Shown here: one piece after another, positions 26,248 through 60,824 of the stretch
Layout of the letters: every line of letters starts with the position of its first letter
Position numbering within the stretch: the first letter of the stretch is position 1
Assembly (NCBI GenBank): GCA_964016885.1
Contig: OZ024760.1
Coordinates: forward strand, 25,234,001-25,298,000
Direction: 5' to 3'
Length of the DNA stretch: 64,000 nucleotides
From: Eledone cirrhosa
Lineage: Eukaryota
Made by a program: the position numbers and the translations under genes
The notes under the pieces: generated by a model
Database searches by the model: none
Seen by the model: the letters and a program-made list of their open reading frames with translations, nothing else
What the model was told of the DNA's origin: nothing

Positions 26248-26310
<63 letters not shown>

Positions 26311-26313
<3 letters not shown>

Positions 26314-26500
26314 CGAAGGAAATGTGGTAAGGAACCAGATGGACCATAACGCACCAAAGTACTCAATACTTAGGGTAGTAGAGTGGGTAATAGGAACGAG
26401 TAGGACCCACCCCGACGGCTGAGCTCAAGCCGTTTCGACGGCTAATTCTGGACTTAGCCGTCGAAACGGCTTGAGCTCAGCCGTCGGGGTCTTACTCGTT

Positions 26501-26503
<3 letters not shown>
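26311..26503. mobile_element. ~190-bp hairpin mini-element carrying the 3' half of an HHR; family copies at 3702-3820, 39700-39795 (tail only), 47455-47670, 57912-58069, 58129-58315, 58527-58720
   Basis: ~55-bp inverted arms containing stemII-GAAA-cggc(ttgagctca)gccg-TC-gggg; ~80-nt tail on one arm; TA-flanked. Confidence 0.75.
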
Positions 26504-26544
<41 letters not shown>

Positions 26545-26821
26545 TATATATATATATCTATTTATATATTTATATGTATGTATTTATTTATATAAATATA
26601 CAATTAAGTTAAAGTGTACATCTACATATGTATACGGAAGTATTAGTATGCATATAAATACACACATGTATACATATGTACATGTACTCAGCTTTTCACT
26701 AGACACTTTACAGTGAGTGTCAGCTAGTCTGTATGTAACCACACAGGCGGACCGGGTTTTAGAGTCATACGAGTTTTCAAGGAAACACATTTCCTCTATT
26801 CTCCAGAGGGCCAGACAGGAA

Positions 26822-26862
26822 TATTGGACTAGTTTCGATGTTATTACATCTCATCAGCAATA
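26822..26862 (-). ncRNA. Minimal type I hammerhead ribozyme, array A (repeated at 27291, 27760, 28229, 28698)
   Basis: Reverse complement reads tattg-CTGATGA-gatgt(aata)acatc-GAAA-ctag-TC-caata in each monomer. Confidence 0.92.
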
Positions 26863-29223
26863 TTTACCCATCTTCCGGCTTCTCTGGAGAATTGTAAAAG
26901 CACATATCGTTATATGCTTTTTCTATGAAAATTAGTAGTGGGTAGACTAATTTGCATAGAACGTGAGTCATTGTACGCACCGGTTCAGCGGAAACGATAA
27001 AAACAAATAACGAAACGAAATTAAATTTCGTTTCGCTTCTAACTCACTTTTGTATGACTGACGCTTAAACAATTAAGTTAAAGTGTACATCTACATATGT
27101 ATACGGAAGTATTAGTATGCATATAAATACACACGTGTATACATATGTACATGTACTCAGCTTTTCACTAGACACTTTACAGTGAGTGTCAGCTAGTCTG
27201 TATGTAACCACACAGGCGGACCGGGTTTTAGAGTCATACGAGTTTTCAAGGAAACACATTTCCTCTATTCTCCAGGAGGCCAGACAGGAATATTGGACTA
27301 GTTTCGATGTTATTACATCTCATCAGCAATATTTACCCATCTTCCGGCTTCTCTGGAGAATTGTAAAAGCACATATCGTTATATGCTTTTTCTATGAAAA
27401 TTAGTAGTGGGTAGACTAATTTGCATAGAACGTGAGTCATTGTACGCACCGGTTCAGCGGAAACGATAAAAACAAATAACGAAACGAAATTAAATTTCGT
27501 TTCGCTTCTAACTCACTTTTGTATGACTGACGCTTAAACAATTAAGTTAAAGTGTACATCTACATATGTATACGGAAGTATTAGTATGCATATAAATACA
27601 CACATGTATACATATGTACATGTACTCAGCTTTTCACTAGACACTTTACAGTGAGTGTCAGCTAGTCTGTATGTAACCACACAGGCGGACCGGGTTTTAG
27701 AGTCATACGAGTTTTCAAGGAAACACATTTCCTCTATTCTCCAGGAGGCCAGACAGGAATATTGGACTAGTTTCGATGTTATTACATCTCATCAGCAATA
27801 TTTACCCATCTTCCGGCTTCTCTGGAGAATTGTAAAAGCACATATCGTTATATGCTTTTTCTATGAAAATTAGTAGTGGGTAGACTAATTTGCATAGAAC
27901 GTGAGTCATTGTACGCACCGGTTCAGCGGAAACGATAAAAACAAATAACGAAACGAAATTAAATTTCGTTTCGCTTCTAACTCACTTTTGTATGACTGAC
28001 GCTTAAACAATTAAGTTAAAGTGTACATCTACATATGTATACGGAAGTATTAGTATGCATATAAATACACACATGTATACATATGTACATGTACTCAGCT
28101 TTTCACTAGACACTTTACAGTGAGTGTCAGCTAGTCTGTATGTAACCACACAGGCGGACCGGGTTTTAGAGTCATACGAGTTTTCAAGGAAACACATTTC
28201 CTCTATTCTCCAGGAGGCCAGACAGGAATATTGGACTAGTTTCGATGTTATTACATCTCATCAGCAATATTTACCCATCTTCCGGCTTCTCTGGAGAATT
28301 GTAAAAGCACATATCGTTATATGCTTTTTCTATGAAAATTAGTAGTGGGTAGACTAATTTGCATAGAACGTGAGTCATTGTACGCACCGGTTCAGCGGAA
28401 ACGATAAAAACAAATAACGAAACGAAATTAAATTTCGTTTCGCTTCTAACTCACTTTTGTATGACTGACGCTTAAACAATTAAGTTAAAGTGTACATCTA
28501 CATATGTATACGGAAGTATTAGTATGCATATAAATACACACATGTATACATATGTACATGTACTCAGCTTTTCACTAGACACTTTACAGTGAGTGTCAGC
28601 TAGTCTGTATGTAACCACACAGGCGGACCGGGTTTTAGAGTCATACGAGTTTTCAAGGAAACACATTTCCTCTATTCTCCAGGAGGCCAGACAGGAATAT
28701 TGGACTAGTTTCGATGTTATTACATCTCATCAGCAATATTTACCCATCTTCCGGCTTCTCTGGAGAATTGTAAAAGCAAATATCGTTATATGCTTTTTCT
28801 ATGAAAATTAGTAGTGGGTAGACTAATTTGCATAGAACGTGAGTCATTGTACGCACCGGTTCAGCGGAAACGATAAAAACAAATAACGAAACGAAATTAA
28901 ATTTCGTTTCGCTTCTAACTCACTTTTGTATGACTGACGCTTAAACAATTAAGTTAAAGTGTACATCTACATATGTATACGGAAGTATTAGTATGCATAT
29001 AAATACACACATGTATACATATGTACATGTACTCAGCTTTTCACTAGACACTTTACAGTGAGTGTCAGCTAGTCTGTATGTAACCACACAGGCGGACCGG
29101 GTTTTAGAGTCATACGAGTTTTCAAGGAAACACATTTCCTCTATTCTCCAGAGGGCCAGACAGGAATATTGGACTAGTTTCGATGTCATTACAATTCTCC
29201 AGAGAAGCCGGAAGATGGGTAAA

Positions 29224-29264
29224 TATTGCTGATGAGATGTAATGACATCGAAACTAGTCCAATA
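29224..29264 (+). ncRNA. Minimal type I hammerhead ribozyme, array A inverted arm; predicted cleavage after GUC at 29259
   Basis: tattg-CTGATGA-gatgt(aatg)acatc-GAAA-ctag-TC-caata: complete core, stem I, stem II and palindromic stem III. Confidence 0.92.
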
Positions 29265-29597
29265 TTCCTGTCTGGCCCTCTGGAGAATAGAGGAAATGTG
29301 TTTCCTTGAAAACTCGTATGACTCTAAAACCCGGTCCGCCTGTGTGGTTACATACAGACTAGCTGACACTCACTGTAAAGTGTCTAGTGAAAAGCTGAGT
29401 ACATGTACATATGTATACATGTATGTATTTATATGCATACTTCCGTATACATATGTAGATGTACACTTTAACTTAATTGTTTAAGCGTCAGTCATACAAA
29501 AGTGAGTTAGAAGCGAAACGAAATTTAATTTCGTTTCGTTATTTGTTTTTATATAAATATATTTATATATATATATATTTATTTATATATATATATA

Positions 29598-29662
<65 letters not shown>

Positions 29663-29715
29663 GTATATATATATATATGTATATATATATATTTGTATAT
29701 ATATATGTTTATATA

Positions 29716-29758
<43 letters not shown>

Positions 29759-29809
29759 GTTTGTATATTTATTTATATATATGTATGTATATATATATAT
29801 ATATATATG

Positions 29810-29855
<46 letters not shown>

Positions 29856-30145
29856 CAAATAACGAAACGAAATTAAATTTCGTTTCGTTTGAAACTCACT
29901 TTTGTATGACTGACGCTTAAACAATTAAGTTAAAAATGTACATCCACATATGTATACTGAAATACTAGTATGCATATGAATACACACACGTGTACATATG
30001 TAGATGTACCGAGTTTTTCACTGGTCACTTTACTGTGAGTGTCCAGCTATTCTGTATGTAAACACGCAGACAAACCGGTTTTTAGAGTCATACTGGTTTT
30101 TGAGGAAACACCTTTCCTCTATTCTCCAGAAAGCCAGACAAGGAA

Positions 30146-30186
30146 TATTGGACTAGTTTCGATGTTGTTACATCTCATCAGCAATA
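30146..30186 (-). ncRNA. Minimal type I hammerhead ribozyme, array B (repeated at 30612, 31078; truncated at 31544-31566)
   Basis: Reverse complement reads tattg-CTGATGA-gatgt(aaca)acatc-GAAA-ctag-TC-caata. Confidence 0.92.
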
Positions 30187-31933
30187 TTTACCTATCTTCC
30201 GGCCTTTCTAGAGAATCGTAAAAGCACATATCGTTATATGCTTTTTCTATGAAAATTAGTAGTGGGCAGACTAATTTGCATAGAGCGTAAGTACGTACCG
30301 GTTCAGCGGAGACGATAAAAACAAATAACAAAACGAAATTAAATTTCGTTTCGTTTGTAACTCACTTTTGTATGACTGACGCTTAAACAATTAAGTTAAA
30401 AATGTACATCCACATATGTATACTGAAATACTAGTATGCATATGAATACACACACGTGTACATATGTAGATGTACCGAGTTTTTCACTGGTCACTTTACT
30501 GTGAGTGTCCAGCTATTCTGTATGTAAACACGCAGACAAACCGGTTTTTAGAGTCATACTGGTTTTTGAGGAAACACCTTTCCTCTATTCTCCAGAAAGC
30601 CAGACAAGGAATATTGGACTAGTTTCGATGTTGTTACATCTCATCAGCAATATTTACCTATCTTCCGGCCTTTCTAGAGAATCGTAAAAGCACATATCGT
30701 TATATGCTTTTTCTATGAAAATTAGTAGTGGGCAGACTAATTTGCATAGAGCGTAAGTACGTACCGGTTCAGCGGAGACGATAAAAACAAATAACGAAAC
30801 GAAATTAAATTTCGTTTCGTTTGTAACTCACTTTTGTATGACTGACGCTTAAACAATTAAGTTAAAAATGTACATCCACATATGTATACTGAAATACTAG
30901 TATGCATATGAATACACACACGTGTACATATGTAGATGTACCGAGTTTTTCACTGGTCACTTTACTGTGAGTGTCCAGCTATTCTGTATGTAAACACGCA
31001 GACAAACCGGTTTTTAGAGTCATACTGGTTTTTGAGGAAACACCTTTCCTCTATTCTCCAGAAAGCCAGACAAGGAATATTGGACTAGTTTCGATGTTGT
31101 TACATCTCATCAGCAATATTTACCTATCTTCCGGCCTTTCTAGAGAATCGTAAAAGCACATATCGTTATATGCTTTTTCTATGAAAATTAGTAGTGGGCA
31201 GACTAATTTGCATAGAGCGTAAGTACGTACCGGTTCAGCGGAGACGATAAAAACAAATAACGAAACGAAATTAAATTTCGTTTCGTTTGTAACTCACTTT
31301 TGTATGACTGACGCTTAAACAATTAAGTTAAAAATGTACATCAACATATGTATACTGAAATACTAGTATGCATATGAATACACACACGTGTACATATGTA
31401 GATGTACCGAGTTTTTCACTGGTCACTTTACTGTGAGTGTCCAGCTATTCTGTATGTAAACACGCAGACAAACCGGTTTTTAGAGTCATACTGGTTTTTG
31501 AGGAAACACCTTTCCTCTATTCTCCAGAAAGCCAGACAAGGAATATTGGACTAGTTTCGATGTTGTCTCTAAAAACCGGTTTGTCTGCGTGTTTACATAC
31601 AGAATAGCTGGACACTCACAGTAAAGTGACCAGTGAAAAACTCGGTACATCTACATATGTACACGTGTGTGTATTCATATGCATACTAGTATTTCAGTAT
31701 ACATATGTGGATGTACATTTTTAACTTAATTGTTTAAGCGTCAGTCATACAAAAGTGAGTTACAAACGAAACGAAATTTAATTTCGTTTCGTTATTTGTT
31801 TTTATCGTCTCCGCTGAACCGGTACGTACTTACGCTCTATGCAAATTAGTCTGCCCACTACTAATTTTCATAGAAAAAGCATATAACGATATGTGCTTTT
31901 ACGATTCTCTAGAAAGGCCGGAAGATAGGTAAA

Positions 31934-31974
31934 TATTGCTGATGAGATGTAACAACATCGAAACTAGTCCAATA
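31934..31974 (+). ncRNA. Minimal type I hammerhead ribozyme, array B inverted arm (repeated at 32400-32440)
   Basis: tattg-CTGATGA-gatgtaacaacatc-GAAA-ctag-TC-caata. Confidence 0.92.
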
Positions 31975-32657
31975 TTCCTTGTCTGGCTTTCTGGAGAATA
32001 GAGGAAAGGTGTTTCCTCAAAAACCAGTATGACTCTAAAAACCGGTTTGTCTGCGTGTTTACATACAGAATAGCTGGACACTCACAGTAAAGTGACCAGT
32101 GAAAAACTCGGTACATCTACATATGTACACGTGTGTGTATTCATATGCATACTAGTATTTCAGTATACATATGTGGATGTACATTTTTAACTTAATTGTT
32201 TAAGCGTCAGTCATACAAAAGTGAGTTACAAACGAAACGAAATTTAATTTCGTTTCGTTATTTGTTTTTATCGTCTCCGCTGAACCGGTACGTACTTACG
32301 CTCTATGCAAATTAGTCTGCCCACTACTAATTTTCATAGAAAAAGCATATAACGATATGTGCTTTTACGATTCTCTAGAAAGGCCGGAAGATAGGTAAAT
32401 ATTGCTGATGAGATGTAACAACATCGAAACTAGTCCAATATTCCTTGTCTGGCTTTCTGGAGAATAGAGGAAAGGTGTTTCCTCAAAAACCAGTATGACT
32501 CTAAAAACCGGTTTGTCTGCGTGTTTACATACAGAATAGCTGGACACTCACAGTAAAGTGACCAGTGAAAAACTCGGTACATCTACATATGTACACGTGT
32601 GTGTATTCATATGCATACTAGTATTTCAGTATACATATGTGCATGTACATTTTTAAC

Positions 32658-32780
<123 letters not shown>

Positions 32781-33598: not shown

Positions 33599-34185
<587 letters not shown>

Positions 34186-34207
34186 TATATATATATATAT
34201 ATATATA

Positions 34208-38599: not shown

Positions 38600-39480
38600 T
38601 AGGTTTGAAGTAGTGGAACGAGAATCTATGGTAATGTGGACACGTGTAGAATATCTCTGATTTGATTTCCTATTTAGTAGGCTAAGGTTAGAGTGAATAA
38701 TATTTTTAGACTCAACGAGACAAAGGTCACAAAATGTGTTAGGTGGTTTATATGAAGGGGCCTTAGCTATCACTTCCCATTTTAAGATGTATGGTATGTT
38801 ACTTGATTTTAATTAGTGTATGTGGATAGTGAGGTTGCGTTGCTAAGTTTAGGGTTTCTGAACGAATGAAGGTGTGAATTATATCTGGTCTTAAAGCTAT
38901 TCGATGTTGAGCCTATATATACTTTCGAGATGTGATTAGCGGTTACAGTACCAGAGTAGACAATGTCTTTAATTAGGCAGTTCCTATTTAGTGGGCATGT
39001 CTTATTAGGCCTACAATTACAATTGTTTTGGTAACTAGTATACTGGTTAAGGGGGTATGCATTTGCGTGGTTGTTTCTGTTTCTACTTCTAGTATTATGA
39101 TTATTATTGGTATTATTAGTATGACTTGCTGTATGGTCCTGTACTGTGTTATTGTTCAGGTTATTTATGTGCTGGAAATTATTACTTTGGTGTAATCTGA
39201 AGTACTTTTTAATCTTTCACTTATTGGTGCTGGATATGTGGTCTGTTATGTTAGGTGTGGTGGAGTAGGAGATGTTAATGGTATTATAGTTAAATAGGTT
39301 GAGGTATTTATGGTTAATTGGGAAGTTTATGTCTAGAGTAGAGAAGAAAGCTTTAGGTATGTTTGTTGATACATTTAAGTTGAACGGAGGATTAAAAAAT
39401 GTGTTACTTCTTCTATTCTTCTTATGGTTGTTATTCATATTATTGTTTTGTGTGGTGTTAGGTACCTTATTATCTATATT
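38600..39480 (-). pseudogene. Second Naiad-type PLE relic (linker plus GIY-YIG)
   Basis: FFNPPFNLNVSTNI..F..H..LFN..ISYS; CNCRPNKTCPLNRNCLIKDIVYSGTV..VYIGSTSNSFKTRYNSH; CDLCLVES..LLNRKS; stops and frameshifts. Confidence 0.85.
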
Positions 39481-47253: not shown

Positions 47254-47764
47254 TTTAGAGGAATATAAATTAATATAATGAGAGAATGTTACATAATATA
47301 ATGTTCCATATATTGGTTTTTACTATGGTGTCTTGGTTGCATCAGTTGTCAGCGATAATCAAGAAGTATTCATCTGTCGAGGCTGCCTTGTGAGATCTGC
47401 CTATAGGCACATCTCACAGACATGTCGCAAAATCAGAGTATATATATATATATAAAAAAGGGGATGTGGTAAGGAACCAGGAGGACCATAACGCCCCAGA
47501 GTTCTCGATACTTAAGGTAGTAGAGTGGGTAATAGGAAAATAGTCAGGACCCCCCCACGGCTGAAAATCCGGCGGTTCGACAGCTAGATGCAAGCCCTTT
47601 AGAAAAGTTCGGATCTAGCTGTCGAAACGGCCGGAGCTCAGCCGTCGGGCTCCTGATTCTTTTTTCTATTGATACATATATAAATATATATATGTATGTA
47701 TGTATGTATGGAACCCATTTGCAACCACGCTGTACGTTTATTCTTTTAAATATATATATATATA

Positions 47765-57850: not shown

Positions 57851-57911
<61 letters not shown>

Positions 57912-57915
<4 letters not shown>

Positions 57916-58067
57916 GGAGTAGGACACCGACGGCTGAGCTCAAGCCGTTTCGACGGCTAATTCTGGACGTCGGGGTCCTACTCGTTCATATTACACACTC
58001 TACTACCCTAAGTATTGAGTACTTTGGTGCGTTATGGTCCATCTGGTTCCTTACTACATTTCCTTCG

Positions 58068-58131
<64 letters not shown>

Positions 58132-58326
58132 CAAAGAAAGTGTGGTAAGATACCAGGTGGACCACAACGCACCAGAGTACTCGATACTTAGGGTGGTCGA
58201 GTGGGTTATAGAGAAGAGAGTCAGGACCTAGATCCGAACTAATATGGTAGCTTAGTTCGGATCTAGCTGTCGAAACGGCCGGGGCTCAGCCGTCGGGGAC
58301 CTGACTCTCCTCATTATATATATATA

Positions 58327-58448: not shown

Positions 58449-58716
58449 TATATATATATATATATAGATATATATATAGATATAGATATATATATAGATA
58501 TAGATATATATATATATATATATATATAACGAAGGAAATGTGGTAAGGAACCAGGTGGACCATAACGCACCAAAGTACTCAATACTTGAGGTAGTAGAGT
58601 GGGTAATAGGTACCAGTAAGACCCCGACAGCTGAGCTCAAGCCGTTTCGACGGCTAATTCTGTCCAGAATTAGCCGTCGAAACGGCTTGAGCTCAGCTGT
58701 CGGGGTCTTACTGGTT

Positions 58717-58720
<4 letters not shown>
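57912..58720. mobile_element. Cluster of three hairpin mini-elements separated by (TA)n/(TAGA)n
   Basis: 57912-58069 (reverse orientation), 58129-58315, 58527-58720 (near-perfect hairpin 58607-58720 with a 2-nt loop). Confidence 0.8.
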
Positions 58721-58756
<36 letters not shown>

Positions 58757-59669: not shown

Positions 59670-60462
59670 AATTCAATCCTGAGCTTTGTAGTTAAGTAAG
59701 AAGTGTTTCCAGACCTGTGGACAACGTGTGAAGAATTCAATCCTCGTGTTTAGGCAATCACTATTGCGTAATCTCTTTAGAATATTTTTTCGTTCATCAA
59801 TACATTGTCCACACCACAGATTGCTCCTTGTGTATGGCTTGGACTTAGTGATGGCTTTCCATTGAATGGAGGAGTCTATACTTGAGTCCTTGGGGGATCA
59901 TACGTGGCTCGCGAGTTACGTGGATGAACGTCTGTCCGGGTACCTAAAGGTCGACTGGTGGTTCAGGAAGCGTTCCTTAAATCGGGCCTTCGCCATACCC
60001 ACATAGGATTTGACCTACTGTGGTTGATTTGGTCCGTTGTAAGTGACCACAGCTTCATATACTACAGCGCGTGTGCTGCATTGCTGTTGAAGGGGACAAG
60101 CTTCGGGCTTACAGCAAGAGCACCATGGTGGGTGTTGCTCTTAGGGTTGTTGGTGATGTGGGCCTTCATGTTCTTAGCGCAGGAGTATCCTAGTTTAACT
60201 TTGTGTCGGTTAAAGATGGAGCGGTATTTATGACCTATGGGAAAGTGTCTATCTAAGAGGGTTAGAAAATGTTTTCCTACATTGGTTTTAACGTGGAGTG
60301 AGAAGAGAAGAGAGAACCAGATAGTTTGTCTATTGTTACGCTTTCTTTTTTTATTGCTGTTGTTGTTAGTGGGAGAGTAAGTGATAGGTTGCGAGAAACC
60401 GCTGTTAGCAAACGCCGTGTTATAGTAGGGTGCCGCCCTGTCAAAGATAGCCTTATTAGAGG
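59670..60462 (-). pseudogene. Naiad-type PLE RT-thumb/linker/GIY-YIG relic (frameshift and stop)
   Basis: SSNKAIFDRAAPYY..IWFSLLFSLHVKTNVGKHFL..IFNRHKVKLGYSC, then in another frame CSCCKPEACPLQQQC..VVYEAVV..*VKSYVGMA..FKERFLNHQSTF. Confidence 0.85.
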
Positions 60463-60824
60463 AGGTCAAATCCTATGTGGGTATGGCGGAGGGCCGATTT
60501 AAGGAACGCTTCCTGAACCACCAGTCGACCTTTAGGTACCCGGACAGACGTTCATCCACGAAACACGCGAGCCACGTATGGTCCCTCAAGGACTCAAGTA
60601 TAGACTCCTCCATTCAATGGAAAGCCATCACTAAGTCCAAGCCATACGCAAGGAGCAATCCTTCCTGTGGACAATATATTGATGAACGAATAAATATTCT
60701 AAAGAGATTACGCAATAGTGATTGCCTAAACACGAGGATTGAATTCTTCACACGTTGTCCACACGTCTGGAAACACATCTTACATAACTACAACTCTCCG
60801 GATTCAACTACAGCAACATCCTAA
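60463..60824 (+). pseudogene. Inverted duplicate of the Naiad-type GIY-YIG C-terminus
   Basis: SYVGMAEGRFKERFLNHQSTF..HVWSLK..IQW..C..ERINIL..LNTRIEFFTRCPH. Confidence 0.85.

What the first reader, a model, noticed from the sequence alone, without database searches (positions are those of the whole stretch)
29161..31600. Both arrays reverse orientation inside hammerhead stem II
Seen: array A flips at 29189-29193 (5-nt TTACA microhomology; the left arm keeps only UGUAAUGACAUC-GAAA) and array B flips at 31566/31567 (left arm keeps ACAACAUC-GAAA). Two separate insertions break within a few nt of each other in a ~467-nt unit. Arms are head-to-head and run through several intact cleavage sites. 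Inference: cDNA was made on a circular or uncleaved multimeric template (rolling-circle reverse transcription), stopped at the folded ribozyme, and was joined to a second cDNA primed from the other target strand.
Basis: partly seen in the sequence, partly recalled or inferred. Interest (0 to 1): 0.85.

Follow-up and report, generated by a model that had tools for sequence, protein, structure and literature searches.

The report
Twin-primed retrozyme, random flip point
These two arrays are copies of a common ribozyme-carrying mobile repeat that sits in TA repeats as two back-to-back arms; in other copies the flip point falls anywhere in the unit, not at the ribozyme, while the outer ends sit at two fixed spots, likely because a Penelope-type enzyme copies the RNA from both sides of a DNA cut.

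Summary
Both junctions are as described, but only the left arm of each array breaks in stem II; the right arms break at monomer positions 399 and 63. The stall-at-ribozyme idea fails. In 114 other head-to-head junctions, 4 of 228 breakpoints lie in stem II against 6.8 expected (upper bound 1.5-fold).

The real signal is at the outer ends. One arm ends at about 225-230 and the other at about 299 nt after the cleavage site, both against (TA)n: 35 of 35 resolved insertions in sample 1, and 58 short-site against 1 long-site partner among 68 in an unbiased sample. There are 1,769 exact long-site ends genome-wide.

This is the Penelope 'tail' signature on a non-LTR retrozyme, so twin priming by a Penelope-type enzyme on an uncleaved template is likely. 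Circle versus linear multimer is unresolved. The scan found this two-arm pattern before on other DNA.

Side finding: a Penelope-like family at 26307-26505 does flip inside hammerhead stem II (62 of 84 ends), with a hard upstream edge that looks like an RNA 5' end rather than a stall.

The parts
26600..29193 (-). Array A left arm: retrozyme subfamily A (469-nt unit), 5.5 units, 5' end at monomer 448 (stem II), outer 3' end at the short site (monomer 227-230) against TA-rich DNA
29189..29552 (+). Array A right arm: 5' end at monomer 399, crosses one cleavage site (after 29259), outer end at the long site (monomer 299) against (TA)n
29189..29193 (.). Junction A, 5-nt microhomology TTACA
29222..29266 (+). 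One full type I hammerhead: 7-bp stem I, CUGAUGA, 5-bp stem II, GAAA, minimal palindromic stem III, GUC cut after 29259
   Evidence: sequence; fold; Rfam HH9 E=7e-4 here and 3e-7 for B units, below the gathering score
29553..29848 (.). (TA)n tract shared by the long-site ends of arrays A and B
29849..31566 (-). Array B left arm: subfamily B (466-nt unit), 3.7 units, 5' end at monomer 452 (stem II loop), outer end at the long site
31566..31567 (.). Junction B, blunt
31567..32663 (+). Array B right arm: 5' end at monomer 63, 2.4 units, outer end at the short site (monomer 225) against (TA)n
26307..26505 (.). Family C: short two-arm copy of a Penelope-like element's 3' repeat (long-site arm on -, short-site arm on +), both 5' ends in the long stem II loop of its own hammerhead
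33719..34186 (.). Family D: two-arm insertion of a related 442-nt retrozyme, outer ends at its short (225) and long (286) sites

Best explanation
Each array is one insertion of a non-coding hammerhead retrozyme into a TA microsatellite, made of two head-to-head arms whose outer ends lie at two different fixed sites of the unit and whose inner ends lie anywhere; it was likely made by a Penelope-type reverse transcriptase/endonuclease copying an uncleaved RNA from both sides of a DNA break. Inferred steps: (1) the enzyme, perhaps a dimer, binds the hairpin region at monomer about 225-300 and cuts both strands of (TA)n; (2) one target end primes at about 299 and the other at about 225-230; (3) both cDNAs run through the ligated or uncleaved hammerheads and drop off at random, about once per 740 nt; (4) the two cDNA ends are joined by microhomology, blunt or filled-in end joining. 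The template is more likely a circle than a linear multimer (about 55:45). The two stem II breaks in this window are coincidence.
For: Fixed, complementary outer ends: in sample 1, 35 of the 35 junctions with both ends at a main site were long+short (49 junctions examined; 8 had one end elsewhere, 6 ran off the fetched DNA, none was same-class). In the unbiased sample anchored on long-site ends, partners were 58 short, 5 other, 4 off-edge and 1 long of 68. The same rule holds in family D (17 of 18 pairs in D-selected loci) and family C (40 long+short, 2 long+other, 0 same-class of 42). Inner ends are uniform. Junction types: 33 microhomology, 22 with inserted bases, 13 blunt. Arm lengths are uncorrelated (rho 0.06, n=35), as expected for two independent cDNAs. 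The genome holds Penelope-like ORFs, and family C's ORF lies upstream of a repeat with the same two-site ends. A purified Penelope-like enzyme cuts and extends both strands of AT-rich DNA, starts at two adjacent internal RNA sites, prefers uncleaved RNA and is predicted to be a dimer (PMC11167929).
Against: No autonomous partner sharing sequence with the A/B unit was found; family C has no similarity beyond chance 9-12-mers. The sites are 70-85 nt apart, against a published tail of 30-40 bp (PMC8557442). In vitro, the two start sites showed no strand difference, so the strict pairing is not yet explained biochemically. 26 of 94 anchored loci had no partner arm within 45 nt; 8 of the 16 inspected carry a short-site remnant of about 10-20 nt and 3 have a short-site arm further off. 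Circle is not proven: periodic unit variants were not significant, and 8 of 28 insertions of 4 or more units share minority variants between arms, which a single monomer circle cannot give without later recombination.
Confidence: 0.75

Rival explanations
1. One reading: reverse transcriptase stalls at the folded hammerhead (stem II), which fixes the inversion point.
For: Both left arms in this window end in stem II, 4 nt apart; 0.34% by chance if stem II had been chosen in advance.
Against: 2 of 98 and 2 of 136 ends elsewhere; pooled 4 of 228 against 6.8, upper 95% bound 1.48-fold; coverage-weighted 2 against 5.9. Family D has 0 of 52 ends in its stem II. The window's right arms break at 399 and 63.
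Confidence: 0.03
2. Same twin priming, but on linear read-through multimer transcripts of existing arrays, with no circle involved.
For: Some insertions have mixed units with variants shared by both arms (8 of 28). In 6 of 7 informative cases the arms match better in the same register from the 3' end (p=0.06). Uncleaved RNA was the main substrate in vitro. The minimal stem III should cleave poorly as a monomer (PMC4209133).
Against: 20 of 28 insertions show no shared minority variant. There is no breakpoint pile-up marking a transcript start, unlike family C. Single arrays show period-4 or period-2 repeats of variants (L045, L044, L059), although not significant overall. Linear copying alone would shorten arrays each generation (inference).
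Confidence: 0.35
3. The inverted arrays arise after insertion, or in assembly: fold-back reads, hairpin-mediated inversion, or two independent insertions into one TA tract.
For: No read or contig shown spans junction A or B. One locus (L092/L093) does show a secondary fold-back at the internal palindrome.
Against: Fold-back or inversion would give a palindromic centre and matching ends. Here the two inner ends differ, there is no TA at the joint, flanks are unique, and outer ends are complementary (long+short) in nearly all cases. Raw Illumina reads of two other samples show another head-to-head joint of this unit at monomer about 56 (5 and 6 reads).
Confidence: 0.05
4. LINE-type twin priming by a non-Penelope retrotransposon (RTE/R2-like elements also occur in this genome).
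For: It gives the same head-to-head geometry with microhomology joints (L1 twin priming, recalled, no call). Other non-LTR ORFs occur in fetched loci.
Against: L1 twin priming starts at the RNA 3' end plus a variable internal site (recalled). Here both starts are fixed and internal, there is no poly(A), and a Penelope-like element of the same genome (family C) shows the identical two-site rule.
Confidence: 0.07

Closest known systems
Metazoan non-LTR retrozymes (Cervera and de la Pena 2020, PMC7229834, passages read; Li, Clavereau and Pollet 2026, bioRxiv 10.64898/2026.07.22.740005, parts 1-3 of 5 read, supplements closed)
   Same: Non-coding tandem units of a few hundred bases, low GC, one type I hammerhead per unit; Penelope-like elements proposed as mobilisers.
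   Different: In PMC7229834 the word 'inverted' occurs 0 times, and the parts of the 2026 preprint that I read do not treat insertion ends. Here insertions are two-armed, with two fixed complementary priming sites, in (TA)n. The unit is slightly longer than the 150-450 bp given. Circular RNA was not tested here.
Penelope-like element insertion structure: inverted 5'-truncated copy plus a 'tail' at one end (Craig et al. 2021, PMC8557442, passages; Schostak et al. 2008, PMC2377424, passages)
   Same: An inverted 5'-truncated copy at the 5' end, an extension often present at only one end, microsatellite targets; opposite-strand hammerhead pairs were already noted in Schistosoma (PMC4209133, parts 1-2 of 4 read).
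   Different: No ORF. The tail is about 70 nt rather than 30-40. Here the one-end-only tail is shown to be a near-strict rule, and inner breakpoints are mapped as uniform.
Anolis Poseidon element in vitro (Frangieh et al. 2024, PMC11167929, parts 1-2 of 4 read)
   Same: Cuts and extends both strands of AT-rich DNA, two adjacent internal start sites, hammerhead cleavage not needed.
   Different: They saw no strand preference of the start sites and did not explain the inverted copies in the parts read; the genomic pairing seen here is the missing constraint.
L1 twin priming (recalled, not from a call)
   Same: Two cDNAs primed from the two target strands and joined at their 3' ends by microhomology.
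   Different: Both starts are fixed and internal, the arms are redundant multi-unit copies rather than two halves of one RNA, and there is no poly(A).

Membership tests
Non-LTR retrozyme | Head-to-tail tandem units of a few hundred bp | tested here: met
   469 and 466 nt units
Non-LTR retrozyme | A type I hammerhead with intact core in every unit | tested here: met
   CUGAUGA/GAAA/GUC in the window's units; Rfam HH9 E=3e-7 to 7e-4, below the gathering score; palindromic stem III can pair between two copies
Non-LTR retrozyme | Non-coding, no LTR | tested here: met
   No stop-free frame of 90 aa or more within a single arm; the ones listed cross a junction or run into TA; ends are internal unit positions against (TA)n
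Non-LTR retrozyme | Dispersed and mobile | tested here: met
   1,769 exact long-site/TA ends, 0 for the control pattern; copies 93-100% alike
Non-LTR retrozyme | Expressed, self-cleaving, forms circular RNA | not testable with these tools
   No RNA holder was listed; needs bench work
Penelope-mobilised element | Inverted 5'-truncated copy joined at the 5' end | tested here: met
   68 of 94 anchored loci have a partner arm of 22 nt or more within 45 nt
Penelope-mobilised element | Two alternative 3' ends ('tail'), AT-rich or microsatellite target | tested here: met
   Ends at 224-231 and 293-300 against (TA)n; the tail is about 70 nt, longer than the published 30-40
Penelope-mobilised element | Sequence homology to the terminal repeat of an autonomous Penelope-like element | tested here: inconclusive
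   No match to family C; the many other Penelope-like families seen were not compared one by one
Autonomous Penelope-like element (family C) | RT plus C-terminal GIY-YIG ORF upstream of a hammerhead-bearing repeat | tested here: inconclusive
   ORF fragments of 245-340 aa with a Cys motif and GIY-YIG-like motif lie upstream in L157, L163, L165, L171 (motif names recalled); Atlas look-alikes carry HTH_animal and GIY-YIG families, score 0.95-0.96; Pfam gave 0 hits on 3 fragments; no full-length ORF was recovered

The most novel reading that the evidence does not exclude
A dimeric Penelope-type enzyme loads once on a retrozyme RNA circle and primes both target strands from two hard-wired sites 70 nt apart, one per strand, so every inverted Penelope-type insertion is one twin-primed event. 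Where the two cDNAs stop then reads out the template's shape: anywhere on a circle (families A, B, D), but at a hard edge inside hammerhead stem II for the autonomous element (family C), whose transcript would begin inside its own ribozyme and so escape self-cleavage.
Probability: 0.35. Interest if true: 0.75.

Novelty: new variant of a known kind. Interest (0 to 1): 0.48.

Why it matters
How Penelope-like elements make their tandem and inverted insertions, and whether they move retrozymes, are stated open questions (PMC8557442; PMC7229834; the 2026 preprint). The near-strict long-end/short-end pairing in three families ties the inverted copy and the 'tail' to one twin-primed event. It puts a Penelope footprint on a retrozyme and names the RNA sites to test in vitro. 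The stem II stall claimed in the finding is not real for these arrays, which lowers the finding as written, and the two-arm pattern has been reported before by this scan. The family C pile-up is the part I did not see in the scan notes shown or in the papers read.

Tried and rejected
Stem II enrichment: rejected. Pile-up at the cleavage site, as a cleaved linear monomer template would give: not seen at 1-5 (p=0.20); a weak excess at 1-25 (8 against 4.4, p=0.08) leaves room for a minor share. Periodic unit variants as proof of multimer circles: permutation test on 20 arms not significant at any lag. Same-register test between arms: 6 of 7, p=0.06, perfect in only 2 of 8. L043, a retrozyme arm joined to a family C ORF, looked like a chimera, but the C copy is 90% and the retrozyme 99% like its reference, and other single arms also abut unrelated repeats; I read it as a later insertion with deletion. 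Reads: no RNA holder listed; no spanning read or contig among the pieces shown for junction A (4 runs) or B (4 runs); these appear to be other individuals or unitigs, so no verdict. Rfam at gathering score: 0 hits; the miRNA-like hits are just inverted repeats. Pfam and PDB sequence searches on family C ORF fragments gave nothing significant. Five paper searches for this architecture listed no paper on two-armed retrozymes; the library lacks most subscription journals, so older Penelope papers were not seen.

Full report
What is there. The window lies in a 3.0-Gb animal assembly. Between 26600 and 32663 are two arrays of a non-coding unit, 469 nt (A) and 466 nt (B), 89% alike. Each unit carries a type I hammerhead with a minimal, palindromic stem III (Rfam HH9 below the gathering score). 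I number the monomer from the cut, which puts stem II at 446-459.

Observation. Junction A (29189-29193, TTACA) joins monomer 448 to 399. Junction B (31566/31567, blunt) joins 452 to 63. A near-coincidence of some end in neighbouring insertions arises 7.4% of the time by chance.

Test of the stem II idea, sample 1. I fetched 73 stretches around the best full-monomer matches. They held 49 head-to-head junctions outside the window: 2 of 98 ends in stem II, 2.9 expected, Kuiper p=0.80.

Sample 2. An exact pattern for the long-site end plus TA found 1,769 places, 0 for the control. I took 95 of the first 100 listed; 5 were already fetched. One had no anchor arm, 68 were two-armed and 26 had no partner within 45 nt. 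Of 136 ends, 2 lay in stem II. Pooled, after dropping L093 (duplicate junction), L063 (overlapping old and young copies) and L102 (same as L215), 4 of 228 lay in stem II against 6.8 expected, upper bound 1.48-fold. The duplicated pair L231/L232 is still counted twice there; neither end is in stem II. The stall model fails.

What is fixed instead. Outer ends fall at 224-231 (short) or 293-300 (long), directly against (TA)n, flanking a two-hairpin region. Of 49 junctions (the window's two included, L093 and L063 left out), 35 were long+short, 8 had one end elsewhere, 6 ran off the fetched DNA and none was same-class. In sample 2, anchored on long ends, partners were 58 short, 5 other, 4 off-edge and 1 long (L297, a 59-nt arm over the internal palindrome). 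Eight of 16 inspected 'single' loci hold a short-site remnant of about 10-20 nt. Both window arrays follow the rule.

How far the arms run. The two arm lengths are uncorrelated. Mean drop-off is one per 743 nt; 122 of 157 arms pass the first cleavage site and 48 pass two. Joints are microhomology (33), inserted bases (22) or blunt (13).

Other families. A related 442-nt retrozyme (family D, window 33719-34186) obeys the same rule at homologous sites: 17 of 18 pairs in loci selected with it; the 7 pairs in unselected loci include the window copy and are noisier. It has no end in stem II. Family C (window 26307-26505) is the 3' repeat of a Penelope-like element; ORF fragments lie upstream in longer copies (Pfam blank). 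In 1.46 Mb not selected for it (199 stretches, a few overlapping), 40 of 42 two-arm copies were long+short and none was same-class. Of 84 inner ends, 62 fell in an 18-nt stretch in the loop and 3' strand of hammerhead stem II, and only 2 lay upstream of it. The sharp upstream edge, at the A of TTCATTT, fits a hard RNA 5' end: an initiator-like start site or a branch point (both motifs recalled). A stall should instead occur where the enzyme first meets the fold (inference). The contrast is useful: a template with an end leaves a pile-up, and the retrozyme shows none.

Mechanism. Shown: geometry, fixed complementary ends, uniform inner ends, read-through of cleavage sites, TA targets. Inferred: a Penelope-type protein cuts both strands and primes one cDNA at each site; both stop at random and are end-joined. 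A purified Penelope-like protein does cut and extend both strands, starts at two adjacent internal sites and uses uncleaved RNA (PMC11167929).

Circle or linear multimer. This is open. 20 of 28 larger insertions show no minority variant shared between arms and 8 do; register and periodicity tests are not significant. No partner element with sequence homology was found.

Artefact. No read shown spans the two junctions. The architecture (different inner ends, complementary outer ends, unique flanks, more than 100 loci) is not what fold-back reads give, and raw reads from two other samples show another head-to-head joint of the unit.

Known versus new. The unit is a non-LTR retrozyme (PMC7229834, passages; 2026 preprint, parts 1-3). 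An inverted truncated copy with a tail at one end is a described Penelope trait (PMC8557442, passages), and circular templates were proposed in 2014 (PMC4209133, parts 1-2). I did not find the strict pairing or two-armed retrozymes in the papers read or in searches; the preprint's supplements were closed. Earlier notes of this scan describe the two-arm, two-site pattern elsewhere in this genome; my reading was recorded before I saw them.

Verdict. The stem II claim is not supported. The underlying element is a real and informative variant of a known kind. Interest 0.48.

Noticed in passing
window 26307-26505; also 3699-3802, 47449-47649, 57909-58074, 58125-58298, 58523-58721: Family C: very abundant short two-arm copies of a Penelope-like 3' repeat whose inner ends pile up inside hammerhead stem II with a hard upstream edge (62 of 84 ends); possibly a transcription start or branch point inside the ribozyme.
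   Followed up: partly
window 33719-34186: Family D: an older related 442-nt retrozyme (2,125 first-look candidates) with the same two priming sites at homologous positions.
   Followed up: partly
monomer position 339 (A) and 336 (B); also in family D units: An ATGCAAAT octamer is kept in all three retrozyme families; an snRNA-type promoter in newt satellite 2 is recalled, and one search did not confirm it.
   Followed up: no
L088:3862-6606 and L099:4736-7095: Arrays with one diverged unit, or a family D unit joined to family A/B-like units, suggesting template switching between different RNAs or mosaic source arrays.
   Followed up: no
L092/L093 (G000:C4:303493600-303508000): A whole two-arm insertion duplicated through a fold-back at the unit's internal palindrome (monomer 261-285).
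   Followed up: no
L045 left arm, L044 right arm, L059, L036: Unit variants recurring with period 4 or 2 in single arrays; not significant over 20 arms.
   Followed up: partly
L207, L218, L234, L242, L253: Arms longer than 4.6 kb, more than a constant drop-off of 1 per 743 nt predicts; later expansion or a processive subset.
   Followed up: no
window 38663-39411 and 59676-60764: Degraded Penelope-like ORF fragments of other families (tblastn).
   Followed up: no
monomer 432-476 (whole hammerhead): Breakpoints are slightly under-represented in the ribozyme (14 against 21.9, p=0.04 post hoc).
   Followed up: partly
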